Sequence record: NC_048194.1 | Origin: Escherichia phage vB_EcoM_WFH | Strand: one strand, 5' to 3' | Length of the DNA stretch: 64,000 nt | Shown here: positions 10,559-49,512 of the stretch, piece after piece | Numbering within the stretch: position 1 is the stretch's first letter | Layout: each line of letters starts with the position of its first letter | Notes under the pieces: model-generated | Database searches by the model: none | Seen by the model: only the letters and a program-made list of their open reading frames with translations | Told to the model about the DNA's origin: nothing | Position numbers and translations under genes: made by a program

Positions 10559-10560
10559 AT

Positions 10561-11178
10561 ATGACTTTCCAAACTAGTGTAGGCCGTCAATATACAACTG
10601 GCTTTCCTGGCGACATCGTTCGCGACGGCCCACAGCGTGGGAAGCCAGGCCGAATTGCCAACGCTAACGAAGGCGCAAACGTAAACGCCATCAGCCGTGT
10701 GTTCGGTTTTAAGACTGACGTATCCTTAATGGGTACTGGTCAAACCAAAACTTTGGGCGCGCAGGACTTTGAAGTTGAGCTGGGCGGCACCAACTACTAC
10801 GGCATCCTCGGCAATAGCAAGCGTTACGCGCTGTATGGCAACTCTACTGGTCCTTTGGGTGCCAGCATGGTTCTGCCTCAATATAGCGAAGGCGAGTTCT
10901 ATGATATGTGCACGGGCCTCGTAGTTGAAGTATTCAACCCAAGCACCAGTCCGCAGACGCTTAACTATGGCGACCTGCTTGCTTATGTACCTAAAGGCAT
11001 TTCCAGCGGTAACAACCCGAACAACTTGCCTATTGGTGCAATTATCGCCTATACTGGCTCATTGCCAACTGGCATGGTTGCCATCCCAGGCGGTATTGTG
11101 ATTGACCCGACGACTATTGCCCTTTCCGGCCCAAGCGTCCAGTCTTCCACTTATACCATTGTACAATTGACTCGTTAA
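10561..11178 (+). CDS. head protein (decoration or minor capsid candidate)
   Basis: ATG at 10561 with RBS aaagggga (track start 10540 is TTG); sits between scaffold and major capsid as decoration genes often do; Gly/Asn/Thr-rich. Confidence 0.35.
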   Translation: MTFQTSVGRQYTTGFPGDIVRDGPQRGKPGRIANANEGANVNAISRVFGFKTDVSLMGTGQTKTLGAQDFEVELGGTNYYGILGNSKRYALYGNSTGPLGASMVLPQYSEGEFYDMCTGLVVEVFNPSTSPQTLNYGDLLAYVPKGISSGNNPNNLPIGAIIAYTGSLPTGMVAIPGGIVIDPTTIALSGPSVQSSTYTIVQLTR

Positions 11179-28248: not shown

Positions 28249-28258
28249 AGGAACGGCA

Positions 28259-31666: not shown

Positions 31667-32641
31667 TTAAAAATACTCCATATCGGTAATATCACGGAAG
31701 CACTTATACAAGGCAGAGCGCGGCACGTCAACTATGCCAAAGTTAAAGAATTTATATGTCAAATACTTGTTTCGATAATTCTCGCGATTCTCCCAAAGCA
31801 TTTTTCTCTCTGCCATAGGCATTGAACCAGCGGAGACGCGGAAGGGAATCATTTCACCTTTCTCATCAACATATTTTGGATTGACAACCACAAATGATCC
31901 AAGGTATCCTTTTGCAACTAAGCCTTCAGCCTCTTTCGAACGCTTAGTGCGACCCAACTCATCAATGAATGCTTCGTTGTTATTCTCCATCATCTCAACG
32001 AAGTCTATGATCAGTCCTTCTTCATCGGTCCACGGCTTGTCCTTCCACACATCACGTGACTTTGGCGTCGCGCGGCCATGCTTGTATTTGCCCGTCCAAG
32101 ACTTGCCATACAAGCCTTCATAGCCAAGCTGGTCTGCTTCGATTTGCATCGCCGCGTACTGTTCCATATTTTCGATGTTTCGATATTCGAGAGCGCGAAG
32201 GAATGGGCGTCGACCATGGTTGATGAGGTGCTGATTGACTTCAGCAACTCTAGCGCGATAGTTTGCATAACGCTTTTCAAAAGGCAAATCAGGGTCGCTG
32301 AAGTCATCAAACACCCACCATGTAAAGTTAGTGATTGCATCAGTGTTCATGCATGCAGTATAGGCCTGTTGCATGACGTTCTTGTCATTCGGATTACCGT
32401 CAATTAGCTCTCCATCAAGTCCGTGAATCAATTCACCCAAGAATAGGAACTCTTTTTTGATTTGAATGTTGCGCAGTGCCATGCCGGATGTGCCCATTGG
32501 CAAGTTGTCATACGCCATCGCGCGTATTCCATCGACCTTGAAGGATAATCCGCAAGGCAGCGGCACATCTTCGCCGCGCTCGATGATTTGTTTACGCTGG
32601 CAACCTTTCATTGGTTTTAATGCTTTGATTTCTCCTGCCAT
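31667..32641 (-). CDS. ATP-dependent DNA ligase
   Basis: ATG at 32641 overlapping upstream stop (track start is GTG one codon earlier); nucleotidyltransferase motif I KVDGIR near N-terminus, further DG/ELDGE-type motifs; size as T7-type ligases. Confidence 0.6.
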   Translation of the reverse strand: MAGEIKALKPMKGCQRKQIIERGEDVPLPCGLSFKVDGIRAMAYDNLPMGTSGMALRNIQIKKEFLFLGELIHGLDGELIDGNPNDKNVMQQAYTACMNTDAITNFTWWVFDDFSDPDLPFEKRYANYRARVAEVNQHLINHGRRPFLRALEYRNIENMEQYAAMQIEADQLGYEGLYGKSWTGKYKHGRATPKSRDVWKDKPWTDEEGLIIDFVEMMENNNEAFIDELGRTKRSKEAEGLVAKGYLGSFVVVNPKYVDEKGEMIPFRVSAGSMPMAERKMLWENRENYRNKYLTYKFFNFGIVDVPRSALYKCFRDITDMEYF

Positions 32642-33234
32642 CACTCAAACTCCTTATTCATCACTTGTTCCAGCGCATAGGCATAAGCCTGATCAGTCGA
32701 TTTAATAAACGTTCCGTTGTACATCACACCTTTACGGTCCTTGATGTCTTCATAGGCGGCTTGAGCGCAATCAGACAGTCGAAGTCCATAATCATGCGCT
32801 ACGCCGGAAAGATAATCGACTGCGGCCATGATAGTGACATCAATATCCATGCTTTGATTTTTAGCAATGGCGTCACCAAGCCGTCCGAGAGTCTTCGCCA
32901 AGCGAAGGATAAAGGAATGAGGGTGAGCGCCTTTGTCAGCGCAACCGCCTCCGTTGATGTCTTCGATTTTTGCACCATTTTGCGCGGCAAGAATAGTTAA
33001 CACAACAAGGCAATCACCGATGTCGTCCTTGATTGCGGCTTGCAAATCACAAATGGCCTGCTCTGTATATCCGATTTCAGGGTCAAAGAACACAAGGTCA
33101 TGGAGTTGATCCACGTGGTCGGTCAACTCCCCAAACTCGCTAATAAGCTTCGGGTATTGGTCTTTAAGGCCGCAACCTTTGATGATGTTACGGTCAGAAG
33201 CCCATTGGCGAATGTTTGCATAAATCTGGTTCAT
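32641..33234 (-). CDS. MazG-like nucleoside triphosphate pyrophosphohydrolase
   Basis: 197 aa; EFGELTDH ... DDIGDCLVVLTILAAQNGAKIED pattern matches MazG/HisE-type EExxE...D motifs. Confidence 0.5.
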   Translation of the reverse strand: MNQIYANIRQWASDRNIIKGCGLKDQYPKLISEFGELTDHVDQLHDLVFFDPEIGYTEQAICDLQAAIKDDIGDCLVVLTILAAQNGAKIEDINGGGCADKGAHPHSFILRLAKTLGRLGDAIAKNQSMDIDVTIMAAVDYLSGVAHDYGLRLSDCAQAAYEDIKDRKGVMYNGTFIKSTDQAYAYALEQVMNKEFE

Positions 33235-33806: not shown

Positions 33807-34667
33807 TTAAAACTCTTCTGCGTCGGTCGGAGTTTCATTGACAGGACCAGCGGCACCACTTGCTTCTTCCTGCTTGCTGCGGTCAATGTTAACGTTGCCG
33901 CCAACCACGTCGTTGTGGAATGCTTTGGCGACTTCGTACAGGCCTTTGTCCTGCACCAGACCTTCCAGCTCAAACTTCAGGACGGACCAGGTGTTGCCGT
34001 CTTTGGACTGAGACGCAGTACCCATGCGAACGATGTTCATGAAGGTCGGCGGCGTTTTCAGGCCCTGCGGAGTCTGAACTTTCTTCTGCTGCAGAGCGGT
34101 CATCAGCATGCGAGACGGCTTGATCATGGAAGAAGTCAGAGACAGCATTGCACTACCAAATTCACCAGTTTCTTCGTTCAACAGAATCACGAAGTGGTTA
34201 CGTGTATCTGCGTAGTAAGGTGATTTCTTCTCGTGCACCTTGCCGTTTTCGTCTGGCACAAACACCTTACCGTTGATCTCAACAGCGCGGCCTGCCGCGA
34301 CTTCTGCATCAACGTGCTCTTTGGTGAATTCACCTTTAAAGCCTTTATCGTCGGACTCGCGACCGCCCCAAAGGATGAAGGTGCGTTTGAATGCGCAAGG
34401 GATGATCTGCACGCCCTTCTTGCCGTCATACAATTCACCAGTAACGGTGTTGTACAGCATACCAGCTTTTGCGCCAGGAACGTGTTTTGGATCATCTTCG
34501 TCGACCATCGGAGACATCTTTTGCAGTACGACGATAAAAGGAATGGCATAAGCGTCGGCATCGGCACCTTCAAAACCAGCGCCAAAATCGGTCATATCGA
34601 CAAAATCAGCCATAGCGGACATCTGGGTGTTTTTTGCTGCAACTTCGGTAGTTTCTTTCTTAGACAT
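33807..34667 (-). CDS. single-stranded DNA-binding protein (T7 gp2.5-like)
   Basis: 286 aa; acidic C-terminal tail ending ...ETPTDAEEF (acidic tail with terminal Phe as in gp2.5-type SSBs); position in replication block. Confidence 0.45.
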   Translation of the reverse strand: MSKKETTEVAAKNTQMSAMADFVDMTDFGAGFEGADADAYAIPFIVVLQKMSPMVDEDDPKHVPGAKAGMLYNTVTGELYDGKKGVQIIPCAFKRTFILWGGRESDDKGFKGEFTKEHVDAEVAAGRAVEINGKVFVPDENGKVHEKKSPYYADTRNHFVILLNEETGEFGSAMLSLTSSMIKPSRMLMTALQQKKVQTPQGLKTPPTFMNIVRMGTASQSKDGNTWSVLKFELEGLVQDKGLYEVAKAFHNDVVGGNVNIDRSKQEEASGAAGPVNETPTDAEEF

Positions 34668-34726: not shown

Positions 34727-35284
34727 TTACTTTTTGCTTTTAGGCAAGGTTATTTTAGCTTCTTTATACTCAAAAACGCTAATATCTTCACTAACTGGAT
34801 TACCCGCTTCCAGCTGTTCTTTAACAAATGACTTCAGTGTAGCAGAATGAACGCCTTGTTTCAACGTGGCTTCAACACCGTCTTCACGCAGCGCGGCAAC
34901 AATCTCTTGCGCTTGCTCGATTTCTTCGCGACCGAACTCAGCCGTGACGCTGGACTTGATCAAGCCGCCGTAACCGTTGTTGACGAGCCAATCGAATACC
35001 TTCAATTCATTTTCTTTCTTGATTGAAGCATTTACTTTTGACTCGACCTTGATTTTGGTCTTGTCTTCAAGCTTGATTTCGGACACGCCAAGCTCATCCA
35101 TGACGCCAGGAAGCAGAACAGTTTTGATTTCACTGATGCGCTGCTTTTGCATATCAGCTTCATCTTCAAGCTCTGTCAAAGCTTCTTGGCGTTCTGCCAA
35201 TTCCGATACTAAGCGCGCAAGGCGCTCTTGAATGCTCTCAGGAGCGACCTGCGGCAAATCATCTTCCCAATTAATATTGCTCAT
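34727..35284 (-). CDS. hypothetical protein (185 aa, acidic, coiled-coil N-region)
   Basis: ATG overlapping upstream stop; no recognised motif. Confidence 0.4.
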   Translation of the reverse strand: MSNINWEDDLPQVAPESIQERLARLVSELAERQEALTELEDEADMQKQRISEIKTVLLPGVMDELGVSEIKLEDKTKIKVESKVNASIKKENELKVFDWLVNNGYGGLIKSSVTAEFGREEIEQAQEIVAALREDGVEATLKQGVHSATLKSFVKEQLEAGNPVSEDISVFEYKEAKITLPKSKK

Positions 35285-40998: not shown

Positions 40999-41025
40999 AC
41001 AAAAAGGCCGCCCATTAGGACGGCC
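40999..41025 (-). terminator. intrinsic terminator downstream of the enzyme cassette
   Basis: GGCCG..CGGCC stem; on minus strand followed by TTTTTGT. Confidence 0.45.
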
Positions 41026-41041
41026 ACAGATTCACGATTCG

Positions 41042-41593
41042 TTATACAGTGTACGGAGTACCGTCTTGATTCAACCGCACGATGAACTTAAGGTCGACAC
41101 CAATGATTTCACGCGTATCAAAGATCACATAGTTGTAACGACGCTGACCAGCAATGTTTGGGTTGGTGTGAGAGTCGGTCACAACTTCCTGCGCAACCTG
41201 AATGCCTTCTTCTTTAAAGAACTTGCGCCATTCAGCAAGTTCAGCGGCAGTCACGTGCATACCAAGATGGCTAACCTGATTGTCGTGCGCATCGATGTAT
41301 TCGATGTTTTCGTGAATCCAGTTGCAACCTTTTGTATAGTCAAGAATTTCAAGCTCAAGAGGCTTACCAGCTCCGCCATCGGTGCCGTTGCCAGCCTGAT
41401 AGTTGAAGCGCAAGTCAGCTTCGTTGGTGCAATCGCCGCGCTGACCCTTAAAGACATCAGCTTCAAATACGCGACCAGTAGCAACAACGTGATCATGGAA
41501 CCATTCTGTCAGGCCGATTTTAGCCAGGAAATTCTGTGCGCGCTGAGCACCTGGAATTGACAGGGCGATTTGTTCAATTTTAAAATGTGGCAT
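41042..41593 (-). CDS. VOC (glyoxalase/bleomycin-resistance-like) family protein, putative
   Basis: 183 aa; two-module hydrophobic beta-alpha-beta pattern (KIEQIALSIP...FLAKIGL and VSHLGMHVT...EEGIQV) suggestive of VOC fold; weak. Confidence 0.3.
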   Translation of the reverse strand: MPHFKIEQIALSIPGAQRAQNFLAKIGLTEWFHDHVVATGRVFEADVFKGQRGDCTNEADLRFNYQAGNGTDGGAGKPLELEILDYTKGCNWIHENIEYIDAHDNQVSHLGMHVTAAELAEWRKFFKEEGIQVAQEVVTDSHTNPNIAGQRRYNYVIFDTREIIGVDLKFIVRLNQDGTPYTV

Positions 41594-41683
41594 TTTGTTT
41601 CCTTAATTAAATATTATTGATTAATTACTGTGTTGTCTTCGTCCTGTTTTTCAGGAGCAGCGACAACTTCAAATGTTCTTGAT

Positions 41684-42367
41684 TTATTTACCAAATGGAA
41701 TATCAGTACCAGACATAAAGCGCCATGCGCCCGTAATTAAGATATGGCGAATGAAGTCAGCAATTACTTGCGGCTCAGTCTCCAATCCATTCATCAGCGC
41801 CTTTTTCTGGTATTCAGCAGCATACTCAGGAGTCCAGCCGCGAGTCGCGCAAACAGCATCTTCAATCTGTTTGGACATGCCAGTACCACGTAGCTTGTTA
41901 GGACTAATAGAGAATACCGTGATCCCGTATTTAGGCGTAAGCTCGTGAGCCATCTGCTTGCTAATCATGAGCGCAGCAGCCTTGGAAGCATTATAACACA
42001 AGCTGGACGTCATAGGAATATGCGCAGCGTTGGAAACGATGTTGATCACAAAACCTTTGTTGTCAATAAGACTTTTCAGCGCGGCCTGAGTCGTGTTGAC
42101 GAAAGAGAAGGCGTTGGTGTGCATAACGCGATTGAACTCTTCGTAGTTAACATCTTCGAACCAGTTGTTGGAGTTGACGCCAGCGCAGTTGATCAAGCCT
42201 TCTACGTCGTATTGAGAGAGAAGCTCTTTCATCTGTTTCGCGTTACGGATGTCATAGCCGTTCTCCAAATCAATACCGACAACTTCATGACCGTAAGCGC
42301 CAAGGGTGTCAAAAATGGATTTACCAAGACCGGAATTGCAGCCAGTTACAACAATTACTTTTTTCAT
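41684..42367 (-). CDS. short-chain dehydrogenase/reductase (classical SDR)
   Basis: 227 aa; Rossmann motif VTGCNSGLG, NCAG, catalytic Y-x3-K (YNASKAA). Confidence 0.85.
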   Translation of the reverse strand: MKKVIVVTGCNSGLGKSIFDTLGAYGHEVVGIDLENGYDIRNAKQMKELLSQYDVEGLINCAGVNSNNWFEDVNYEEFNRVMHTNAFSFVNTTQAALKSLIDNKGFVINIVSNAAHIPMTSSLCYNASKAAALMISKQMAHELTPKYGITVFSISPNKLRGTGMSKQIEDAVCATRGWTPEYAAEYQKKALMNGLETEPQVIADFIRHILITGAWRFMSGTDIPFGK

Positions 42368-42432
42368 TTATTTATCCTTTTTGGACTTCGTTTCGATGAG
42401 ATAAATATAACTCATCGAAACGCACAAGTAAA

Positions 42433-43305
42433 CTATTTATTGAAATTAATATTATGGGTGTTGACAAGACGTTCACACATGGCGCTGTAAACACCATCAT
42501 CGTGTATTGAGTCTTCGTGCTTCAGGCCGCTGATTGCGAAGCGTGTAAGCTTGACAATCTTAAGCTCGAACAGATGCCACATGTGGTAGTCTTCCGGCGT
42601 TTTCAACGTCACGCCATTAGGGAAAAGCACCTGCATAACCTGACCTACCATCACAGCGTTATCGCCATAGACAGCGTTGCGCTCACGGAAGGTTGCTGCC
42701 ATCGCATCAAGAATATCGGCGGCAGTTGCCGGAGATTGTTCAACTTCCACAGCCTTAGTCTCTTCTTGCCCTGTTGCACTTGGATCAATTGCTAATTGTT
42801 GCACCACTTCACCTGCCTTGCAAAGATTAAATGTAAAAGCGATTTTATTTTGAGCAACGGAATTATAATACAATGCTTCATCTTGCATCCGCGCGAGTAC
42901 GTCTTGTCGGTCGTCGAATACATTGATGATTCGATAATCGCCGTGCCGCAATGCGTGCGACAGCCATGCAGATTTCATAATAGTTGATGGACGTTTGTCG
43001 CCATAGTCTCTCATCTTGATTGTAAATTCATCAAAAGGGAAAACATTGTCCAGACGTTCAAAAGTCACTTGTCTGTATTTTTCTGGCCTTGCAGTCCAAT
43101 ATTCAACCGCCTCACCGCGAAGAGATGCCGACTCTACTGCTGATGCAATGTGAGGATAGAACTGATCATAACCAATACCGCTGTGATAATCATCATAGTC
43201 TGACAACGGACCTGCCACCTTGATGCGGTCTAAGCGCCAACGGTCATCAAACAGCGTTCCGTCAAGGTCGAATACGTTTAAGATTTCGCTGTTTTTAATG
43301 CTCAT
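42433..43305 (-). CDS. HAD-superfamily phosphatase fused to a C-terminal domain of unknown function
   Basis: 290 aa; HAD motif I FDLDGTLFDD at N-terminus; C-terminal ~120 aa unrelated. Confidence 0.55.
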   Translation of the reverse strand: MSIKNSEILNVFDLDGTLFDDRWRLDRIKVAGPLSDYDDYHSGIGYDQFYPHIASAVESASLRGEAVEYWTARPEKYRQVTFERLDNVFPFDEFTIKMRDYGDKRPSTIMKSAWLSHALRHGDYRIINVFDDRQDVLARMQDEALYYNSVAQNKIAFTFNLCKAGEVVQQLAIDPSATGQEETKAVEVEQSPATAADILDAMAATFRERNAVYGDNAVMVGQVMQVLFPNGVTLKTPEDYHMWHLFELKIVKLTRFAISGLKHEDSIHDDGVYSAMCERLVNTHNINFNK

Positions 43306-44105
43306 CCTTTTGATACTCCATCTTTAGCAACTGGATTGTTGGTGATTGGCATCGCACTCCAAAACTGGATGCGCAACTCTTCTTGCTGTGCCGTGGTATC
43401 CATCCAATCACGATACCAAGGGCAATGGGCTTTACCGTGACGAGGAAATGCGCACTTACCCATACCAATGCATTGCGGCTGCAGTAATGGATTCGCCCAA
43501 GGGTGCACCTTGAGGACTTCCGCAACCATTGCGCGGAATACTTCTTGATACTCTCCTTGCGTGCGCGTGCACAAGCGGTTTGACGCCATCTGCTGCAGCG
43601 TGCGCAAGTTGAACTTTGCCATGATATGCGTTTGCATATTAGAAGGCAACACGGCACGTGCATCTTGAATCTCTGCGCCAGCCGCGCGAAGCTCTTGATA
43701 CAAAGCGTCGATAGTCGCCATCGCATCATCCCACTTCTCTGCCAGTTCAGCTGCCTTCTCGTCATGGCGAGTCCATCCCTTTGGATCATCCTCTGGGTAA
43801 GTGAATTTAGCAGGACGAATCGCATCAAATGCAGACGACTCCTGAGCGCGGCTGGTGCGTTCTTGATATGCGCCTGTGCGTGTGCGTACCATCTGATGGG
43901 TCATGTTCTTTGATACAGCTGTGATATCAAAGATATAGTCCACAAAGTCAAAAGGCGACTTGATTGTATCAAGCATGTAGCGCCAATGCTCTTGCTTCTC
44001 TGATTCCGTCATCTCAGAGACAGGCTTACCAGTCATGCGCGTGTTCTTTGTTTCCAGCAAAAGGTCAAGTGCATCTTGGGTGTATCGAATTAATTCAACT
44101 TTCAT
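43302..44105 (-). CDS. ThyX-like (flavin-dependent thymidylate synthase family) protein with non-canonical motif
   Basis: 267 aa; segment QMVRTRTGAYQERTSR aligns to ThyX RHR-x7-S signature but with Thr in place of His; Cys/His cluster near C-terminus (CIGMGKCAFPRHGKAHCPWY). Confidence 0.5.
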   Translation of the reverse strand: MKVELIRYTQDALDLLLETKNTRMTGKPVSEMTESEKQEHWRYMLDTIKSPFDFVDYIFDITAVSKNMTHQMVRTRTGAYQERTSRAQESSAFDAIRPAKFTYPEDDPKGWTRHDEKAAELAEKWDDAMATIDALYQELRAAGAEIQDARAVLPSNMQTHIMAKFNLRTLQQMASNRLCTRTQGEYQEVFRAMVAEVLKVHPWANPLLQPQCIGMGKCAFPRHGKAHCPWYRDWMDTTAQQEELRIQFWSAMPITNNPVAKDGVSKG

Positions 44106-44118
44106 TTTAATTGTCCTA

Positions 44119-44565
44119 TTAACGGTAATTCACTAGTTGCTGATCACCAGAGAAGGTGCAATGATAAACGAATTGTGCGTTATAAAGCAACTGAAAACTT
44201 TTCTTTGGTTCATTATTAGAACTCATTGATGTAAAGATTTCTGCACCAGAACGGTTTTCACCAATCAGATTGATAAAGCCGCCAGTTGAACGAGGTTGAA
44301 CGAAAGTGAAACGTTGCATCCACGGAGTCCGGTTGACACCTTTTCCGGTGAATCCTTGAATCTGAATATTCAGACCTTCTTGCTCATTCACACCGATGTA
44401 AGTGGTAATCTTCGCACCAGTCGTTGCTGCGGTCTTACCGTCCATCGCTTCGCAATCGTAAACAGCGATTGAATCGGAAGTACGGATGGCGGCTTCAGTC
44501 GCTTCCATATACATGGTGCCGAGAATAGCAGTTGCGGCAAGCGCGATTCCAGTGATTCGTTTCAT
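44119..44565 (-). CDS. secreted protein with signal peptide (148 aa)
   Basis: MKRITGIALAATAILGTMYMEA... N-terminal signal-peptide-like sequence. Confidence 0.45.
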   Translation of the reverse strand: MKRITGIALAATAILGTMYMEATEAAIRTSDSIAVYDCEAMDGKTAATTGAKITTYIGVNEQEGLNIQIQGFTGKGVNRTPWMQRFTFVQPRSTGGFINLIGENRSGAEIFTSMSSNNEPKKSFQLLYNAQFVYHCTFSGDQQLVNYR

Positions 44566-44585
44566 TTTCGTTTCCTCTATGAGTT

Positions 44586-44622
44586 CTGCTTCAATGATTA
44601 AAGTATACGCCCATTGAAGCAG
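44586..44622 (-). other. intergenic stem-loop (11-bp inverted repeat CTGCTTCAATG / CATTGAAGCAG)
   Basis: Between FAD-oxidoreductase stop and next gene's RBS; possible processing or regulatory hairpin. Confidence 0.35.
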
Positions 44623-44630
44623 AAAGCAAA

Positions 44631-45626
44631 TTATTTATTAGCAATATAAGCAAATTTTTGATAGTTATTTGCTTTGATGAGTTTTTCGACTTCAACAAGG
44701 TCATGAGCGACGTCATCAAGCAAGATATTGCGCCAGGTCGCGAATCGACCGACACTAAACACGTTTAAATCCATAGTCAGCTGCAGGAGTAGGGCGTGTC
44801 GCAAGTCTTTCGGAATGTCGACAATCTTGCCATATTTCTGGTCGACCTTTTCAACTTCTTCAAGAGCAATGTCACTCCATGAAAGGCCAAAGGCCGTCAA
44901 CACTTCGTCGACTTCTGCGCGCAGCTTCATGTCACGGTAACGAGTGATGCCGCCTGCGGCTTCAACTGCAGCTTCACTCACGCTGACCAAAGGAATTGTT
45001 TCAATGATAAGCGTGTCACCAGTAATTGATGCGCGGTAAGTTCTGACGGAGTAGTCAGGGAAGTAAATTGTCTGATACAAATCACACTTACGTTTAATCT
45101 TAAAGCGGTAAACGCGAATGTTTGCTTTATCAAATGAGAAATCAAGCTTTTGATCAATTCCAGCAAGCTTCATCATGACTGGCAGCGGCGACGTGTTGAT
45201 GATTGGCGTCTCGCTATAGCCGCAAAGAGTATCAACCGGAGTATTAAAGAATATGCGGTCACCCAGTTTGTCGACAAGCTGATCATAAAAGTCATCAGGC
45301 GCAATATAACGCGTTGCAGTCTTAAGCTTCATGATTGAACGGCTGCCAAATTGATTGGTGACCTTCATGGAATACATATTGGCAAGGTTGATTGGGCAAT
45401 GGTCGTGATAGTAGTTGCCGCGAAAATACACAGCCTTGTCAACTGTCACGGCCTTAAAAGGGATTCCGGTAATACGGCTTACTTCTTCGCCGCGAAAGCG
45501 TAGCAGCGCCTTGTGCTGTTGCGCTCGTTCCCCTGCTTCGTACACAATAGAGTTCGGGAAGTGACACGCGGTGATAAGTCCTGCCAATCCGCCGCCGATA
45601 ATCATTACAGGTTGTTTCATGTTCAT
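44631..45626 (-). CDS. FAD/NAD(P)-binding oxidoreductase
   Basis: 331 aa; N-terminal dinucleotide-binding fold MIIGGGLAGLITA; C-terminal GRFATWRN...DD reminiscent of flavoenzymes such as UDP-galactopyranose mutase or amine oxidases. Confidence 0.55.
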   Translation of the reverse strand: MNMKQPVMIIGGGLAGLITACHFPNSIVYEAGERAQQHKALLRFRGEEVSRITGIPFKAVTVDKAVYFRGNYYHDHCPINLANMYSMKVTNQFGSRSIMKLKTATRYIAPDDFYDQLVDKLGDRIFFNTPVDTLCGYSETPIINTSPLPVMMKLAGIDQKLDFSFDKANIRVYRFKIKRKCDLYQTIYFPDYSVRTYRASITGDTLIIETIPLVSVSEAAVEAAGGITRYRDMKLRAEVDEVLTAFGLSWSDIALEEVEKVDQKYGKIVDIPKDLRHALLLQLTMDLNVFSVGRFATWRNILLDDVAHDLVEVEKLIKANNYQKFAYIANK

Positions 45627-45711
45627 TTGTCCTTTGTGGGTGATATGAGAAGTATAATAGCTAAATTATTTTACAGCAACAAGTCATTTTATTTAGTACA
45701 GATGAAAAAAA

Positions 45712-45732
45712 GACCCACAACAAGTGTGGGTC
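45712..45732 (-). terminator. intrinsic terminator (GACCCACA-n5-TGTGGGTC)
   Basis: On minus strand the 8-bp stem is followed by TTTTTTTCATC; directly downstream of the K/A/E-rich gene. Confidence 0.65.
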
Positions 45733-45759
45733 AATTACCGCTGCATAACCGTCCTAAGG

Positions 45760-46599
45760 TTATTCCGCTTGATCACCGTCTTCGGCATCTTCGTTGGGTT
45801 CAACATCGACAAACTCGATGTGGCCCATCTCTTCCAGCTTGCTCAGGTAGGAGCGAACGGAAGCGCCAAACAGTTGATCTTTAACTTTTTCGCCCAGCTC
45901 ATCGATAGACTGCGCCACGCCAACTTCGCCTTCTTTGATCGCCGCCAGAACGCGTCCACGGGTGGAATGCTCTTGCGGCTGGCTCAGGCCATTGCCAGTG
46001 TAGATGAAGTGAGTAGCTTTTGCACGACGTTGACCGTTTGCCTTTTTAGCGGCCTTACGTTCTGCGATGGCTTTGCGACGTTCTTCAGCTTCTTTCTTAC
46101 GCTGTTCTTTCTGTTGTTCTGCAGCTTCTTTCGCCGCAATCTTAGCAGCTTCACGCTCTGCCTTGCGTTTCGCTTTAGCTTCTTCTTTGGCCTTCTCTTT
46201 TTCGGCCTTCGCTGCAGCACGGGCTTGATCACGCTCTGCTTTCTTAGCAGCAGCTTGTTCAGCTTTCAGGCGCTTGGCTTCTTCTTTAGCCTTTGCCTTT
46301 TCGATTTCTTTTGCTGCTTTAGCGGCTTCACGCTCTGCTTTCTTAGCAGCAGCCTTTTCTGCACGCTCTTTAGCTTTCTTAGCTGCTTCTTCAGCACGCT
46401 TCTGAGCCTTCTCATCAGCAGCCTGCTTGCGTTTCAGGGCAGCTTCTTCACGCTTGGCTTGTTTTTCCTGCTCACGCTTCTGGCGTTTTTCTTCGGCTTC
46501 TTTCTTTTTAGCCAGACGTTTTTCTTCAGCCACGCGACGGCGTTCTGCTGCAGCTGCTTGCTTTTCTTCTTTAGATAATACTTTGATTGCTTCGGCCAT
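45760..46599 (-). CDS. K/A/E/R-rich coiled-coil protein with C-terminal globular domain
   Basis: ATG at 46599 (track start is GTG two codons earlier); ~200 aa of low-complexity charged helix (AEEKRQKREQEKQAKREEAALKRK...), then ~80-aa domain (..GRVLAAIKEGEVGVAQSIDELGEKVKDQLFGASVRSYLSKLEEMGHIEF..). Confidence 0.6.
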   Translation of the reverse strand: MAEAIKVLSKEEKQAAAAERRRVAEEKRLAKKKEAEEKRQKREQEKQAKREEAALKRKQAADEKAQKRAEEAAKKAKERAEKAAAKKAEREAAKAAKEIEKAKAKEEAKRLKAEQAAAKKAERDQARAAAKAEKEKAKEEAKAKRKAEREAAKIAAKEAAEQQKEQRKKEAEERRKAIAERKAAKKANGQRRAKATHFIYTGNGLSQPQEHSTRGRVLAAIKEGEVGVAQSIDELGEKVKDQLFGASVRSYLSKLEEMGHIEFVDVEPNEDAEDGDQAE

Positions 46600-46758
46600 A
46601 TTCACAGTCCTTAAATAAATTAGTTTATTTTATATTCCCCTTTTGGGATAACTTAATTATGCCTTCAGTCGCCGCCAGTAGCAACTAAAAACTCTGGCGG
46701 CAATGCCACTTTAATTAAACTGATTTTCAGTTTTATTTTTCGTAAATTTACGTCAACA

Positions 46759-47943
46759 TTAACGCGCTTTCAAATCACGGTACACGGTCAGATTCTTCTT
46801 AGCGCGGGTGATGGCTGTGTACATCATCTTGGCATACGGAACGCCGCGCAAGATTTCTTCTAGCACGCACACATTGTCCCACTCGCTGCCTTGCGATTTG
46901 TGCACCGTTATGACATAGCCATAGTCCATGCCTCCAACAGCGCGTTGAGCCTCTTTGCGCACTTCCTGATCAGTAGAGAAGGAAAGAGGATTTATCTTCA
47001 CCTTTATATCTTTGCCATCGGTAAGCGAGCGCAAATTGACATACATGATTTCATTAGACTCGTCTTCATCCCTTTCAAAGTCCGGTACTGGCTCATAACT
47101 AATAACAATCCCTTGCTCGCCATTACAGAATCCTGGACCGTGTTGATTGAATGTGCAAATAACTTTCTCGCCGATTCCTGGCATTGGCGTTATACGTCCG
47201 CTCACTTGGCGCAATAATGAATTCCATTTATCTTTGGTGCTATTATAAGAGCAAATAATTTGATCATCTTCGCCCATGAATTTCTTCAGTGCGGTAACGC
47301 GCGGCGATTCAGCCAACACCTTTACGTCATCGTATTCACGCGGAGGAAGTCGGTTGCCCTGTCGCACGAAGAAGGAAGCGCGGATTATGTTTGACTCTTT
47401 CCCCTGCCGCATGATTTCGGTTAACAGTACGTCAACGGCATCTTCAGTGAAGTAGGCGGCGGCTTTTACCGGAGGGACTTGTCCAATGTCGCCTAATGCC
47501 AGGACAGGGATGCGGTGATCAAGAAGGCGCTCTGTGTCCCACTCACCGACCATTGAAGCTTCATCAAGGACGACAAGGTGCGGCCTTTCATCAAGCGTTG
47601 ACTTTCTTGCGAAGATTGGTTCATTGTCATCGTTAACGCCGCGCACGTTATAGATGAACTGGTGAAGGGTCTTAGCGCCACGACAACCTTTTTGCTTTAA
47701 TCGGCTGGCGGCCTTTCCGGTCGGCGCAATATAAATGGCACCGTACTCACCGACACAACGGCGCACAATCTCACGCGCAATAGAGGTTTTACCTGTTCCT
47801 GCATAGCCAGCGATGAAAAACACGCGCTTCGTCGTTTTACCGTCCTGCAATCGCTTGTACCATGCAACGGCCTTTTCGATGGCATCAATCTGTTGCGCGT
47901 TGAACTGAATCACTGGCTCATTATTAAATTCTGGAATGTTCAT
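46759..47943 (-). CDS. Dda/RecD-like SF1 DNA helicase
   Basis: 394 aa; Walker A GYAGTGKTS, Walker B VVLDEASMV, C-terminal TVHKSQGSEWDNV motif. Confidence 0.75.
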   Translation of the reverse strand: MNIPEFNNEPVIQFNAQQIDAIEKAVAWYKRLQDGKTTKRVFFIAGYAGTGKTSIAREIVRRCVGEYGAIYIAPTGKAASRLKQKGCRGAKTLHQFIYNVRGVNDDNEPIFARKSTLDERPHLVVLDEASMVGEWDTERLLDHRIPVLALGDIGQVPPVKAAAYFTEDAVDVLLTEIMRQGKESNIIRASFFVRQGNRLPPREYDDVKVLAESPRVTALKKFMGEDDQIICSYNSTKDKWNSLLRQVSGRITPMPGIGEKVICTFNQHGPGFCNGEQGIVISYEPVPDFERDEDESNEIMYVNLRSLTDGKDIKVKINPLSFSTDQEVRKEAQRAVGGMDYGYVITVHKSQGSEWDNVCVLEEILRGVPYAKMMYTAITRAKKNLTVYRDLKAR

Positions 47944-48269
47944 TATAACTCCACTACGCTTTCAAGGTCCAGATATACTGGAATAAAATGGCAATCTTCT
48001 TTTCGTTCAAACATCTCACCGTCAACGTGACTGAAGAAAACAGTCGTGTTTGGTATCTTCCACCCTTTCTCGTCGCGCACCAGGTACGCCATGGATTCAA
48101 CAGGGATGTAAAGCGATACCGGATTTGCGGCAAAGATGAATTTGATTCTGTCTGGTTGACCCAGGAATCGCATAATTGTAAGACTTGAATTCAGTCTTGT
48201 ATTAAGAAAGGACTCAACGATTCCGACGTGTGTCGCACGTTCGCGTTGCTTCGTATCTTTTTCGTTCAT
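47943..48269 (-). CDS. hypothetical protein (108 aa)
   Basis: ATG start; first gene of the minus-strand block next to divergent promoter region. Confidence 0.4.
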   Translation of the reverse strand: MNEKDTKQRERATHVGIVESFLNTRLNSSLTIMRFLGQPDRIKFIFAANPVSLYIPVESMAYLVRDEKGWKIPNTTVFFSHVDGEMFERKEDCHFIPVYLDLESVVEL

Positions 48270-48372
48270 TTCAGGCGACCTTTGTTAGTGCGGAAATATT
48301 TTCTGATAGTATAATTGCAGATATAGTATAAAGCAAAGTAAATCGAAATTGTGAACTAAATGGTAAATATTG

Positions 48373-48400
48373 TTGACTTTGTATCACTCAATATTATACT
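48373..48400 (+). promoter_or_regulatory. sigma70-like promoter (TTGACT-16-TATACT)
   Basis: In AT-rich divergent intergenic region about 30 bp upstream of primase-polymerase ATG. Confidence 0.45.
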
Positions 48401-48429
48401 GCAGGTATTGATCACCGAAGGAAAGAAAG

Positions 48430-49512
48430 ATGGCTAGTTTAAGAGAAGAAGCAAAAATAATCGAAGAGTTTTTGACGGAACTCCAAAGAGGCATTCCAGA
48501 AGATGAACGCGTCATGACCGTGTTTGCTCCTGAAGCAACAGTGCAGACTGACGAGCGCGGCAAAAAGATTAACAGCAGCTTCTGGCCTAAGCCTTGGAAG
48601 CTTGGCAAGCCGCTGATGCAACATCAGAACGGTTACGCCTGCATAAGTTCAATGCGTAAGTCTCCCAACCCAAAGACAGGCGAGATGCGATACTGGCGCA
48701 CGGAATCGGCTTTCGGTCATGGCATGGCGATGATGGTCGACGACATCGGACACGGTAAAGGGTCCAAAGGCGATTTGGATTTGGAGTTCTTTTTCGAGCG
48801 CCTAAAACCAACCGTCATTGTCGAGACTTCGCCGAACAACCACCAGCTGTGGTACTTCTTTAAAGACCCGATTGACCATCTTATCCAGTTCAAGGCATTT
48901 CTTGGGTCTTTCGTAAACATGGTACTCAAGAAGGGCGGCGACAACACGATTAAAGATGTGACGCGCGTTGGCCGTGTTCCTGGGTGTATCAACAACAAAC
49001 GTGTGACTCACGACGGACCTTACAAATATGTCGATGAGAACGGCGACCCGTTCCGCTGCCGACTTGTTCATGCAGACTACTCTTTGCGCTACACAATCGA
49101 AGAGATTTGCCAAGCCTTCGGTTTCCACGTCGTTATGCCGCAAAAGCGTGAAATTCAAATCGACGTTGACGAATACAAATATGACGCTGTTTGGTATAAG
49201 ATAGCCCAGCAAATCCTTGCGCGCAATAAGATGGGCGAAGGGTCCGATGGCGATGTGGTTGAAAACATGTCAGGTAAATGCCGCATCATCTGTCCTTGGG
49301 GTGAAGAGCACACCAACGGCGACCCATACGGCGCTTATTTTCGCGGCCCAATCCCTGGCGCTGAACATGAATTCGTTTTCGGTTGCGCTCACGACTGCCA
49401 CCGGAAAGGGGAAGGCAAGAAAGGATGGACCGCTTTTGTTGAAGCAGTAGTTATGCCTTATATTGAGAATCAACTTGATATGATAAATCGTCGCGCAGGT
49501 GGCATAAAATAG
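48430..49512 (+). CDS. primase-polymerase (archaeo-eukaryotic primase superfamily) with C-terminal zinc-binding region
   Basis: 360 aa; AEP-like motifs MVDDIGHG (DxD), ETSPNNHQLWYFF (His motif), TRVGRVPGCINNKR (motif III-like); C-terminal CRIICPWGEEH...FGCAHDCH cysteine/histidine cluster. Confidence 0.55.
   Translation: MASLREEAKIIEEFLTELQRGIPEDERVMTVFAPEATVQTDERGKKINSSFWPKPWKLGKPLMQHQNGYACISSMRKSPNPKTGEMRYWRTESAFGHGMAMMVDDIGHGKGSKGDLDLEFFFERLKPTVIVETSPNNHQLWYFFKDPIDHLIQFKAFLGSFVNMVLKKGGDNTIKDVTRVGRVPGCINNKRVTHDGPYKYVDENGDPFRCRLVHADYSLRYTIEEICQAFGFHVVMPQKREIQIDVDEYKYDAVWYKIAQQILARNKMGEGSDGDVVENMSGKCRIICPWGEEHTNGDPYGAYFRGPIPGAEHEFVFGCAHDCHRKGEGKKGWTAFVEAVVMPYIENQLDMINRRAGGIK

What the first reader, a model, noticed from the sequence alone, without database searches (positions are those of the whole stretch)
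43302..44105. ThyX homologue with RTR in place of the RHR signature and an added Cys/His cluster
The segment ...THQMVRTRTGAYQERTSR... aligns with the ThyX signature RHR-x7-S (dUMP phosphate-binding loop) but has Thr instead of His at the central position and Ala where a Ser is usual a few residues on. The C-terminus carries CIGMGKCAFPRHGKAHCPWY, which is not a feature of ThyX as I recall it. A ThyX-fold enzyme with altered active-site residues could act on a different pyrimidine substrate or transfer a different one-carbon or larger group, as happens with ThyA-derived dCMP/dUMP hydroxymethylases. My recall of the exact signature spacing is imperfect.
Basis: partly seen in the sequence, partly recalled or inferred. 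Interest (0 to 1): 0.5.

Follow-up and report, generated by a model that had tools for sequence, protein, structure and literature searches.

The report
Atypical phage ThyX in conserved operon
This phage gene encodes a thymidylate-synthase-like flavoenzyme that lacks two catalytic residues of normal ThyX and is almost always encoded beside the same partner genes, which makes it a leading candidate for the still-unknown pathway behind the sugar-decorated thymines recently found in DNA of related phages.

Summary
ORF 43302-44105 (-) is a ThyX-fold protein with RTR aligned exactly on T. maritima R78-H79-R80, and it has a C-terminal Cys-rich extension. But RTR and the "Cys/His cluster" are not the informative features. 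RTR is the commonest motif in a large, essentially virus-only clade. The two His are variable, while four Cys (C179, C212, C218, C228) are invariant and also occur in canonical ThyX. What defines the clade is the joint loss of His53 and Tyr91 (here I48 and A87) and a remodelled folate-side pocket, with the dUMP/FAD-binding arginines kept. Across 269 distinct viral ThyX genes this "I-type" state is linked to a UGM-like flavoprotein (160/164 loci) and a HAD phosphatase/DUF6378 gene (147/164). Canonical ThyX genes show neither (0/66). The window is a Wifcevirus, a genus reported resistant to nearly all tested restriction systems with no known protection. Its sister genus Pbunavirus, which has the same module, was shown in 2025 to carry hypermodified thymidine at TG sites with no assigned biosynthetic genes. 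I infer that this protein installs the C5 carbon for that modification, most likely as a flavin-dependent dUMP hydroxymethylase. An ordinary thymidylate synthase that depends on a partner protein remains a serious rival.

The parts
43302..44105 (-). ThyX-like ('I-type') flavoprotein gene, 267 aa
   Evidence: ORF. Pfam Thy1 E 2.9e-30. AF2 model pLDDT 85.1. Foldseek top hit is T. maritima ThyX 1o27, E 2e-10, TM(target) 0.74. TIGR02170 thyX equivalog scores 81.8 bits, below the 87.9 cut-off.
43878..43886 (-). Codons for R74-T75-R76, which replace the RHR of the ThyX motif
   Evidence: Alignment to Tm R78-H79-R80. Invariant in 120 close homologues.
43962..43964 (-). Codon for I48, at the position of Tm His53 (stacks on the folate pterin and the reduced flavin)
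   Evidence: The role of His53 is taken from PMC11940539.
43845..43847 (-). Codon for A87, at the position of Tm Tyr91 (proposed general acid; H-bonds His53)
   Evidence: The role of Tyr91 is taken from PMC11940539.
43569..43571 (-). Codon for C179, first ligand of the invariant Cys4 site, two residues after R177 (=Tm R174)
43422..43472 (-). C212-x5-C218-x9-C228, the rest of the Cys4 site in a C-terminal extension absent from solved ThyX structures
   Evidence: Invariant columns in alignments A2 and A3. This stretch of the model has pLDDT 91-93.
44631..45626 (-). 'R330': 331-aa FAD-type Rossmann protein (GxGxxG), UGM/protoporphyrinogen-oxidase-like; constant upstream partner of I-type ThyX
42433..43305 (-). 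HAD (PNKP-type) phosphatase domain (about 42880-43275) fused to a DUF6378 domain (about 42436-42723). Its ATG overlaps the ThyX-like stop codon (ATGA).
   Evidence: Pfam HAD_PNKP E 5.4e-8. DUF6378 matched by 17/22 family members, best E 5.5e-6. Junction sequence. Linked in 147/164 I-type loci and 0/66 H-type loci.
41684..42367 (-). Short-chain dehydrogenase/reductase (FabG-like), an accessory member of the module
   Evidence: Pfam adh_short E 1e-31. Present next to the module in 38/80 close loci. Its protein cluster occurs in 50 I-type loci and 0 H-type loci. Not found next to the module in Pbunavirus 14-1/F8.
44119..44565 (-). 148-aa protein with an N-terminal signal-peptide-like segment, inserted between R330 and the ThyX-like gene in Wifcevirus
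   Evidence: ORF. No Pfam or PHROG match. Membership of the module is doubtful.
32641..33234 (-). MazG-like nucleotide pyrophosphatase in the same replication module; candidate dNTP-pool editor
   Evidence: phrog_1992 E 5e-63. Conserved in Pbunavirus. A MazG-like gene also sits on the metagenomic contig L012.
33807..35284 (-). Pam3_Gp34-like (33807-34667) and DUF7307 (34727-35284) genes of unknown function that often accompany the module
   Evidence: Pfam PF23977 E 4e-86 and PF23984 E 2.6e-37. Co-occurrence on L012, L325 and many other loci.

Best explanation
The gene encodes a virus-specific subtype of the ThyX fold, which I call I-type. It still binds FAD and dUMP, but it is not a stand-alone reductive thymidylate synthase. 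It works inside a conserved, co-transcribed module: a UGM-like flavoprotein (R330), the I-type ThyX, a HAD phosphatase with DUF6378, sometimes an SDR, and a MazG-like pyrophosphatase nearby. I propose that it installs the C5 carbon on dUMP for the thymidine hypermodification now known in Pbunavirus DNA. The most likely form is a flavin-dependent dUMP hydroxymethylase. Reduced flavin N5 would carry a methylene to C5 of dUMP as in ThyX, but the exocyclic-methylene intermediate would be captured by water, or handed on, rather than reduced to methyl. The HAD and MazG-like enzymes would then play the dTMPase and dTTPase pool-editing roles known from classical hydroxymethyl-uracil phages. DNA-level enzymes would convert 5-hmdU to sugar-bearing bases at TG sites and to T elsewhere. 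The Cys4 site is most likely a structural metal site (Zn or Fe-S) that ties the C-terminal extension to the active-site helix. Shown here: fold, residue pattern, gene linkage, viral restriction. Taken from the literature: Pbunavirus modification, Wifcevirus resistance to restriction-modification (RM) systems. Inferred: the product, the roles of the partner genes, and that Wifcevirus DNA is modified at all.
For: (1) The dUMP/FAD ligands are retained in both types: Q71, R74, R76, R86, R150, R168, R177 (= Tm Q75, R78, R80, R90, R147, R165, R174). (2) The folate-side residues are all replaced together: H53 to I, H59 to F, Y91 to A/V/T, W181 to G, and the folate-loop position to R23. Among 269 unique sequences there are no mixed H53/Y91 states. 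Tyr91 is reported as strictly conserved and critical, and the H53-Y91 pair controls the folate site (PMC11940539). (3) Linkage: R330 lies within 4 kb in 160/164 I-type loci against 0/66 H-type loci (Fisher p 2e-53), always on the same strand (191/191), with a median gap of 57 nt. HAD/DUF6378 is linked in 147/164 against 0/66. The ThyX stop and HAD start overlap as ATGA. (4) The linkage recurs outside the PB1-like lineage: Rhizobium jumbo phage RHph_TM30, Cronobacter podovirus Ss1 and the metagenomic contigs L012 and L325. (5) Among cultured phages R330 has the same taxon distribution as I-type ThyX and was not listed for the Gordonia, Mycobacterium, Clostridium or Bacillus phages whose ThyX hits were only 22-30% identical to the query. 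(6) Only 5 loci were found among 185,579 species genomes, all on short or MAG contigs. (7) Pbunavirus F8 and 14-1 DNA has about a quarter of T replaced at TG by nucleosides of 362 and 390 u, and no biosynthetic genes are named (PMC12191111). By my arithmetic both masses equal 5-hmdU plus a tetritol or a pentose minus water. (8) Known T-hypermodifying phages start from 5-hmdUMP made by a thymidylate-synthase homologue and use dTTPase and dTMPase (PMC8989533). This phage has no ThyA, and I found no TET/JBP, 5-HMUDK or aGPT-Pplase. [quoted passage not shown] (10) TG-containing palindromes escape the palindrome avoidance seen in the window and in I-type loci.
Against: No enzymatic, genetic or analytical data exist for this protein or for Wifcevirus DNA. 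The module contains no dNMP kinase and no dCMP deaminase, which classical hydroxymethyl-uracil phages have. Three quarters of T in Pbunavirus DNA is ordinary T, so a plain dTMP supply would also be useful. The phosphatase could equally act on sugar phosphates or on DNA. The I-type/module association is partly phylogenetic, because most loci share a PolIII-alpha-like replication module. The palindrome signal is not specific: the CC/GG and GA/TC classes also differ between the I-type and H-type sets. Several I-type proteins pass the TIGR02170 thyX cut-off. The sequence specificity for TG needs a DNA-level enzyme that I have not identified.
Confidence: 0.45

Rival explanations
1. It is a genuine dTMP-forming flavin-dependent thymidylate synthase. 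Its divergent folate/NADPH-side pocket is compensated by a dedicated partner: R330 would act as the flavin reductase or docking partner. The module then simply boosts dTMP supply for a very fast-replicating phage, and the hypermodification genes lie elsewhere.
For: All dUMP- and FAD-binding arginines are retained. It is the only thymidylate-synthase-like gene in the genome. It sits in the replication module next to the polymerase, helicases and ligase. It scores above the Pfam threshold, and some I-type relatives pass TIGR02170. Most T in Pbunavirus DNA is unmodified. Eukaryotic UGMs, the best structural matches of R330, can bind NAD(P)H (PDB 5vwt and 5vwu). His53 belongs to the shared NADPH/folate site, so its loss could create the need for an external reductant.
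Against: Tyr91, which is absent here, is reported critical for the methylation half-reaction itself and not only for reduction. No cellular lineage appears to use this subtype as its thymidylate synthase. A phosphatase translationally coupled to a dTMP synthase is hard to rationalise. The host already has ThyA. The constant DUF6378 and frequent SDR partners have no role in dTMP synthesis.
Confidence: 0.35
2. The I-type ThyX and the UGM-like R330 together attach a sugar-derived carbon chain directly to C5 of dUMP. A reduced-flavin N5 iminium adduct of an aldose or aldose phosphate (UGM-type chemistry) would take the place of the flavin-methylene of ThyX. That would give C-C-linked polyhydroxyalkyl-dUMP, and the HAD enzyme would remove the sugar phosphate.
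For: Both parent enzyme families use flavin N5 covalent catalysis (ThyX mechanism summarised; a covalent FAD-galactopyranose UGM structure, 5hhf, is listed). The folate pocket of I-type ThyX is remodelled. By my arithmetic the reported masses also fit dU plus pentose minus water plus 2H (362) and dU plus hexose minus water (390), which are isomers of the O-linked readings. A phosphatase and an SDR fit sugar-phosphate chemistry and the 'sugar alcohol' description.
Against: This is purely an inference by analogy. It does not explain the TG specificity, which implies modification at the DNA level. No precedent exists. R330 lacks a Pfam GLF match. F8 and 14-1 have 94-97% identical ThyX and R330 yet carry different adducts.
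Confidence: 0.08
3. It is a catalytically dead or repurposed ThyX-fold protein, for example a dUMP or flavin binder that acts as a regulator, a pool sensor or an anti-defence factor.
For: Two catalytic residues are lost, and the protein scores below the TIGR02170 cut-off.
Against: The substrate- and cofactor-binding residues are invariant across sequences down to about 26% identity, and many further positions are strongly conserved. That pattern is typical of an active enzyme. The operon partners are enzymes.
Confidence: 0.05

Closest known systems
Flavin-dependent thymidylate synthase ThyX (EC 2.1.1.148; Pfam PF02511; T. maritima TM0449, PDB 1O26)
   Same: Same fold (Foldseek E 2e-10). Same domain family. 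Same spacing of the RxR-x7-[ST]-x-R motif. Same dUMP/FAD-binding Arg/Gln set.
   Different: His53, His59, His79, Tyr91 and Trp181 are replaced, and the folate loop is altered. It has a C-terminal Cys4 extension. It is about 20% identical to every solved ThyX. It scores below the TIGR02170 cut-off. It is encoded with obligate partner genes and is essentially confined to viruses.
ThyA-family dUMP/dCMP hydroxymethylases of phages (SPO1, PhiW-14, ViI, M6, T4 gp42) and their pre-replicative pathway
   Same: Proposed role: a thymidylate-synthase paralogue diverted to make the 5-hydroxymethyl pyrimidine nucleotide that seeds DNA hypermodification, accompanied by nucleotide pyrophosphatase and phosphatase genes (PMC8989533).
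   Different: The fold and cofactor are unrelated (ThyX/FAD rather than ThyA). No ThyA-like ORF is present. No dNMP kinase, dCMP deaminase, 5-HMUDK or aGPT-Pplase was found. The activity is untested.
Pbunavirus thymidine hypermodification (phages F8 and 14-1; Yee et al. 2025 preprint, PMC12191111)
   Same: Pbunavirus is the sister genus of the window's phage and has a syntenic R330, ThyX-like and HAD/DUF6378 module (49%, 41% and 27% identity). Its DNA is modified on T at TG sites, with no known modification genes.
   Different: Modification has not been examined in Wifcevirus. Wifcevirus adds an SDR and lacks Pbunavirus gp70-72. The paper assigns no genes, so the link to this module is my inference.
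UDP-galactopyranose mutase / protoporphyrinogen-oxidase class flavoproteins (for the partner R330)
   Different: It is much smaller (331 against 365-510 aa). It has no Pfam GLF or amine-oxidase match. It is 10-17% identical, and its substrate is unknown.
PolB, the ThyX homologue acting as a UMP/dUMP C5-methylase in polyoxin biosynthesis (recalled from memory, not tested here)
   Same: It is a precedent that the ThyX fold has been recruited for a non-housekeeping pyrimidine C5 modification.
   Different: As I recall, PolB keeps the canonical catalytic residues and still methylates. I did not compare it with this protein.

Membership tests
ThyX / Thy1 (Pfam PF02511) | Domain match above the Pfam gathering score | tested here: met
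   105.9 bits against 24.8, E 2.9e-30, full-length profile coverage.
ThyX / Thy1 | ThyX three-dimensional fold | tested here: met
   AF2 model pLDDT 85.1. The top 50 Foldseek PDB hits are all ThyX, best 1o27 with E 2e-10 and TM(target) 0.74.
FAD-dependent thymidylate synthase, NCBIfam equivalog TIGR02170 | Score at or above the curated equivalog cut-off (87.9 bits) | tested here: not met
   81.8 bits. The canonical controls L5 gp48 and P0248 score 175 and 183 bits. Other I-type proteins score 90-98 bits.
FAD-dependent thymidylate synthase | ThyX signature RHR-x7-S | tested here: not met
   The motif is RTR-x7-T with identical spacing. The central residue in I-type genes is T 150, H 32, S 12, N 2.
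FAD-dependent thymidylate synthase | dUMP/FAD-binding residues (Tm Q75, R78, R80, R90, R147, R165, R174) | tested here: met
   Q71, R74, R76, R86, R150, R168 and R177 are conserved in both I-type and H-type genes.
FAD-dependent thymidylate synthase | Strictly conserved Tyr91 and the folate-stacking His53 | tested here: not met
   A87 and I48 occupy these positions. The I-type set has V/T/A/I at position 87 and I/L/V at position 48, while H-type genes have Y and H in 73/73. The roles come from PMC11940539.
FAD-dependent thymidylate synthase | Catalyses dUMP to dTMP / complements thyA | not testable with these tools
   Needs an enzyme assay or a complementation experiment.
Phage dUMP hydroxymethylase pathway (ThyA family) | Homology to ThyA | tested here: not met
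   phmmer with E. coli ThyA finds no ORF in the window at E<=1. If the function is shared, it is analogous and not homologous.
Phage dUMP hydroxymethylase pathway | Accompanying dTTP/dTMP-depleting enzymes | tested here: inconclusive
   A MazG-like pyrophosphatase and a HAD phosphatase are present and linked, but their substrates are unknown.
Known thymidine hypermodification systems (5-HMUDK + aGPT-Pplase, or TET/JBP) | Presence of 5-HMUDK, aGPT-Pplase or TET/JBP genes | tested here: not met
   None appear in the curated Bas99 annotation or in Pfam/PHROG scans of the 15 larger ORFs I tested, most of them unannotated. Small ORFs were not scanned.
Known thymidine hypermodification systems | Non-canonical thymidine in virion DNA | not testable with these tools
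   Shown for Pbunavirus F8 and 14-1 by LC-MS (PMC12191111). No data exist for Wifcevirus. Indirect hints are its RM resistance and the TG-palindrome signature.
UDP-galactopyranose mutase (for partner R330) | UGM fold and Pfam GLF domain | tested here: inconclusive

The most novel reading that the evidence does not exclude
The I-type ThyX and the UGM-like flavoprotein form a new two-flavoenzyme system that attaches a sugar-derived carbon chain directly to C5 of dUMP through a flavin-N5 iminium adduct. This would be C-C bond formation: a 'C-glycosylating thymidylate synthase'. It would give the 362 and 390 u nucleosides of Pbunavirus as C-linked polyol or cyclic-sugar thymidine analogues. A less extreme version, which I rate at about 0.4, is that this is the first flavin-dependent (ThyX-fold) dUMP hydroxymethylase.
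Probability: 0.08. Interest if true: 0.95.

Novelty: new variant of a known kind. Interest (0 to 1): 0.72.

Why it matters
PB1-like phages (Pbunavirus) are among the phages most used in Pseudomonas therapy. In 2025 their DNA was found to carry a previously unseen thymidine hypermodification for which no genes are known. Their E. coli relatives, Wifcevirus, resist nearly all tested restriction systems, also unexplained. This analysis gives a concrete and testable gene set: a UGM-like flavoprotein, an I-type ThyX and a HAD/DUF6378 protein, with or without an SDR. The set is shared by both genera and by hundreds of uncultured phages. If the ThyX-like enzyme makes 5-hydroxymethyl-dUMP or a larger adduct, it would be the first change of reaction outcome within the flavin-dependent thymidylate synthase fold, parallel to what happened in the ThyA family. 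It would also define a new entry route into DNA hypermodification. In practical terms, hundreds of 'thymidylate synthase' annotations in phage genomes would need revision. The I48/A87 (His53/Tyr91) state together with the R330 neighbour would become a simple genomic marker for predicting modified phage DNA, which affects sequencing, cloning, restriction sensitivity and targeting by modification-dependent defence nucleases.

Tried and rejected
(1) I looked for an experimentally studied phage ThyX that lacks the RHR motif. As I recall, mycobacteriophage L5 gp48 was reported to be active, but it has canonical RHR, H53 and Y91, so it says nothing about RTR.
(2) Domain fusions of long homologues proved to be inteins or homing-endonuclease inserts, or N-terminal domains with no Pfam match.
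(3) A broad alignment (A3) could not seed the genome scan. The narrower one (A4) did, but it probes only query-like I-type sequences. The claim of absence from cells is therefore untested for the Cys-less I-type branch.
(4) PDB sequence searches for R330 and the HAD protein found nothing. The DUF6378 profile's weak hits to POU domains (E about 1e-3) look like helical-composition noise and I disregard them.
(5) Cluster look-ups gave no taxonomy, only metagenomes.
(6) Model coordinates are not exposed, so I could not measure Cys-Cys distances. The metal-site claim rests on conservation only.
(7) The afdb50 fold library was unavailable.
(8) The two Wifcevirus papers I searched for restriction or digest data (Korf 2019; Necel 2020) contain no restriction-digest or nucleoside data for these phages, and the Mansfield announcement says nothing on these genes.
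(9) The palindrome test is at first sight striking: TG/CA palindromes are not avoided while the others are (window p 7e-4). After a control over all dinucleotide classes it is only suggestive.
(10) I considered RTR or Cys4 as the functional discriminator and rejected both, because neither tracks the gene partners.
(11) One contig (L044) carries an I-type gene plus a second, degenerate H-like ThyX paralogue. This is a single case and too weak to use.
Full report
WHAT IS THERE. The ORF at 43302-44105 on the minus strand is real: 267 aa with an ATG start. It matches Pfam Thy1 (PF02511) over the whole profile with E 2.9e-30, and it matches PHROG 85 'thymidylate synthase'. The window is a Wifcevirus, an E. 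coli/Shigella myovirus of about 68 kb. It is 99.9% identical over the 6-kb stretch I compared (41000-47000) to Shigella phage CWP003, and 94-98% to FEC19, ECML-117, WFC and the BASEL phages Bas98-101. The gene lies in the leftward replication module. The order is ligase, MazG-like pyrophosphatase, spanins, Pam3_Gp34-like, DUF7307, helicases, polymerase, exonuclease, SDR, HAD protein, ThyX-like, a 148-aa ORF, a 331-aa ORF, a TolA-like protein and a Dda helicase.

CHECK OF THE OBSERVATION. phmmer against PDB aligns 'QMVRTRTGAYQERTSRA' to T. maritima ThyX 'QWFRHRIASYNELSGRY'. RTR therefore sits exactly on R78-H79-R80. T84 corresponds to S88 and R86 to R90, with canonical spacing. The C-terminal string is present at residues 212-231. 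Two corrections are needed. First, the two histidines are variable (H/W/Y and H/Q/N), while four cysteines (C179, C212, C218, C228) are invariant in 120 close homologues. They stay invariant in 43 sequences down to 26% identity. C179 lies two residues after R177, the counterpart of the uracil-binding R174. An AlphaFold2 model (pLDDT 85.1) matches only ThyX structures, best 1o27 with E 2e-10. All solved ThyX proteins are about 20% identical and none has the C-terminal extension.

HOW UNUSUAL ARE RTR AND THE CYS CLUSTER? An exhaustive search of 1.84 billion cluster representatives gave 1591 relatives at E<=1e-3. In the best 150, RTR is the commonest form of the motif. The Cys4 pattern appears with RTR, RHR and RQR motifs, and also in proteins that otherwise have a fully canonical residue set. 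One such canonical Cys4 protein scores 183 bits on the NCBIfam thyX equivalog. The query scores 81.8 bits, just under the 87.9 cut-off. In 269 distinct viral ThyX genes gathered with four scans of IMG/VR, Cys4 occurs in 96/196 genes of the query's type and in 41/73 canonical genes. Neither RTR nor Cys4 therefore marks a functional boundary. Because Cys4 is dispensable in half of each type, I read it as a structural metal site. I could not measure its geometry because model coordinates are not exposed.

THE REAL BOUNDARY. Profile alignment of those 269 sequences shows only two states and no intermediates. 'H-type' genes have His at query position 48 and Tyr at 87, as in Tm H53 and Y91. 'I-type' genes have I/L/V at 48 and V/T/A/I at 87. 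Further discriminating columns are F for Tm H59, G for W181, Y for I183, TN for the NA consensus of H-type genes at Tm L152-N153, and R23/L24 in what corresponds to the folate loop. Both types keep Q71, R74, R76, R86, R150, R168, R177, Q183 and E185, which are the dUMP and FAD-phosphate ligands Q75, R78, R80, R90, R147, R165, R174, Q180 and E182. The recent ThyX literature calls Tyr91 and Ser88 'strictly conserved' and critical. It reports a roughly 1000-fold slower flavin oxidation in Y91 mutants. It describes His53 stacking on the folate pterin and on reduced flavin, and describes the His53-Tyr91 hydrogen bond as the latch of the folate site (PMC11940539). The I-type enzymes have thus kept the nucleotide and flavin sites and rebuilt the carbon-donor side.

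GENE LINKAGE. In Wifcevirus, Pbunavirus 14-1 and F8, and an unrelated metagenomic phage contig, the ThyX-like gene is flanked by the same two genes. Upstream is a roughly 330-aa protein, which I call R330 (window 44631-45626). It is 41% identical to 14-1 gp66 and 32% to the metagenomic copy. Downstream is a PNKP-type HAD phosphatase followed by, or fused to, a roughly 100-aa domain that I identified as Pfam DUF6378 (17 of 22 members match). I then quantified this on loci with at least 1.5 kb of flank on both sides. R330 lies within 4 kb of 160/164 I-type genes and 0/66 H-type genes (Fisher p 2e-53). HAD/DUF6378 lies near 147/164 I-type genes and 0/66 H-type genes. R330 is always on the same strand (191/191), is usually immediately upstream (163/191), and has a median gap of 57 nt. 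In the window the ThyX stop and the HAD start overlap as ATGA. An SDR like the one at 41684-42367 follows in about a quarter to a half of I-type loci and never in H-type loci.

Most I-type loci share a PolIII-alpha-like replication module, so the counts are not phylogenetically independent. However, the trio recurs in the T4-like Rhizobium jumbo phage RHph_TM30. There the R330 homologue is annotated 'polysaccharide deacetylase' and the HAD-DUF6378 protein 'phosphoheptose isomerase'. It also recurs in the 42-kb Cronobacter podovirus Ss1. Among cultured phages R330 occurs in 360 records with the same taxon profile as I-type ThyX: Pseudomonas 292, Escherichia 25, Serratia 9, Rhizobium 8 and so on. 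Gordonia, Mycobacterium, Clostridium and Bacillus phages are not among the taxa listed for R330; their ThyX hits were only 22-30% identical to the query, and I did not type them. A scan of one genome from each of 185,579 prokaryotic species found only five loci, all on short or MAG contigs. Query-like I-type ThyX is therefore essentially viral.

BIOLOGICAL CONTEXT FROM THE LITERATURE. [quoted passage not shown] Yee et al. (2025 preprint, PMC12191111) show that Pbunavirus DNA was long thought unmodified. They find it resists enzymes whose sites contain TG. It contains novel nucleosides of 362 u in F8 ('erythrose/threose sugar alcohol derivative') and 390 u in 14-1 ('circularized aldopentose derivative'). 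These replace about a quarter of thymidines. The authors stress that homology searches for known modification genes would have missed this family. By my arithmetic both masses equal 5-hmdU (258) plus a tetritol (122) or a pentose (150) minus water. They also equal the isomeric C-linked products dU plus pentose minus water plus 2H, and dU plus hexose minus water.

Lee et al. (PMC8989533) summarise the established route to hypermodified thymidine. A thymidylate-synthase homologue makes 5-hmdUMP. A dTTPase and a dTMPase deplete the thymidine nucleotides. [quoted passage not shown] The Wifcevirus genome has no ThyA. I found no TET/JBP, 5-HMUDK or aGPT-Pplase in it. My full-text search for ThyX together with hydroxymethylase and phage found no paper describing a ThyX-type hydroxymethylase.

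SYNTHESIS. The only thymidylate-synthase-like gene in these phages belongs to a ThyX subtype with three properties. It retains dUMP and FAD binding. It has lost the residues that run the canonical carbon-transfer and folate side. It is inseparable from a second flavoprotein and a phosphatase. One genus with this module demonstrably hypermodifies thymidine with 5-hydroxymethyl-type adducts and lacks every known enzyme for doing so. The most economical reading is that the I-type ThyX supplies the C5-functionalised dUMP, most simply 5-hmdUMP. That species is chemically close to the ThyX exocyclic-methylene intermediate described in PMC8989533. The HAD and MazG-like enzymes would then correspond to the classical dTMPase and dTTPase. 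I put this at 0.45. The main rival, at 0.35, is a true dTMP synthase that needs R330 as its reductant. The retained ligands, the replication-module setting and the predominance of ordinary T in Pbunavirus DNA all favour that rival. A bolder possibility, at 0.08, is direct transfer of a sugar carbon through a flavin-N5 iminium. That would combine UGM-type and ThyX-type chemistry and would fit the masses equally well.

Between F8 and 14-1, which carry different adducts, ThyX and R330 are 94% and 97% identical. The HAD/DUF6378 protein is 81% identical and gp71/gp070 only 57%. This suggests a shared core step with variable tailoring enzymes.

AN INDIRECT SEQUENCE SIGNAL. In the window, 6-bp palindromes that lack TG/CA are strongly avoided: the median log2 observed/expected is -0.55, and 13 such sites are absent altogether (for example AGCGCT, 0 found against 25.7 expected). 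Palindromes that contain TG/CA are not avoided (-0.06; Mann-Whitney p 7e-4). T followed by G makes up 26.5% of all T. Across 112 I-type loci the same asymmetry holds (difference +0.29, positive in 88% of loci). It is smaller in 59 H-type loci (+0.12; I against H p 0.001) and in T7 (+0.05). This is what a protective TG-context modification would produce. However, a control over all dinucleotide classes shows that the CC/GG and GA/TC classes also differ between the two sets. I count it only as weak corroboration.

VERDICT. It is a previously undescribed variant of the ThyX family embedded in a conserved module. That module gives directly testable candidate genes for a very recent open question. 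Every functional assignment here is an inference. The decisive experiments are nucleoside LC-MS of Wifcevirus DNA, knockouts in F8, 14-1 or Bas99, and product analysis of the purified enzyme with and without R330.

Noticed in passing
whole window (1-64000): There is strong avoidance of GATC (97 found against about 279 expected), CCGG (76 against 145) and CTAG. Thirteen 6-bp palindromes are completely absent (AGCGCT, TCCGGA, GGCGCC, CCGCGG, CGGCCG, GGTACC, ACCGGT, CGTACG, CTCGAG, GAGCTC, GGGCCC, GGATCC, GCTAGC). This points to heavy restriction-site counter-selection alongside any DNA modification.
   Followed up: partly
window 44119-44565 (-): A 148-aa ORF with a signal-peptide-like N-terminus (MKRITGIALAATAILGT...) sits between R330 and the ThyX-like gene. 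It has no Pfam or PHROG match. In Pbunavirus the same gap holds five small unrelated ORFs, so this slot appears to be a variable insertion point within the module.
   Followed up: partly
window 45760-46605 (-) and 45724-46578 (+): A Lys/Ala/Glu-rich low-complexity protein is annotated 'TolA protein' in relatives. Its repetitive codons also create a long spurious mirror ORF on the opposite strand.
   Followed up: no
L009 17997-19301 (14-1 gp71) and L010 17894-19090 (F8 gp070): These two orthologues are only 57% identical, while the neighbouring genes are 91-100% identical, in two phages reported to carry different thymidine adducts. They have no credible Pfam match and there is no counterpart in Wifcevirus. 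The protein is a candidate determinant of sugar identity.
   Followed up: partly
L011 (Rhizobium phage RHph_TM30) 5611-6570 and 11751-12473: The GenBank products 'polysaccharide deacetylase' (gp190) and 'phosphoheptose isomerase' (gp205) appear to be misannotations. gp190 is an R330 homologue (E 2.5e-74), and gp205 is a weak HAD-like domain followed by DUF6378.
   Followed up: yes
L044 / L211 (IMGVR_UViG_3300027985_000864) 4474-5088 and 9974-10756: One viral contig carries both an I-type ThyX within the module and a second, divergent H-like ThyX paralogue (H48/Y87, but RIA in place of RHR) directly after R330. This may reflect a division of labour between two ThyX paralogues.
   Followed up: partly
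proteins P0212, P0223, P0234, P0242, P0247, P0252, P0257 (metagenomic): This is a further ThyX-like class with L48/F54/RQR/F87/Q181 plus Cys4, fused to 150-280-aa N-terminal regions without any Pfam match. I did not sample it in the locus analysis, and its context is unknown.
   Followed up: no
proteins P0157, P0166, P0263, P0159: Some ThyX-family homologues are interrupted by inteins (Intein_splicing/Hint), inserted about 100-160 residues into the protein. Another is fused to a GIY-YIG homing-endonuclease-like domain.
   Followed up: no
window about 28000-30000 and about 47000-48500: The signs of GC skew and AT skew flip where transcription switches from the rightward structural module to the leftward replication module and back to the rightward early genes. 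This matches the gene-strand layout.
   Followed up: no
L003 and L007 (Xanthomonas pisi DSM 18956 contigs of 567 and 595 bp): Fragments 95-99% identical to the Wifcevirus ThyX-like gene occur as tiny contigs in a Xanthomonas genome assembly. This is most likely phage or laboratory contamination of the assembly and not a cellular gene.
   Followed up: no
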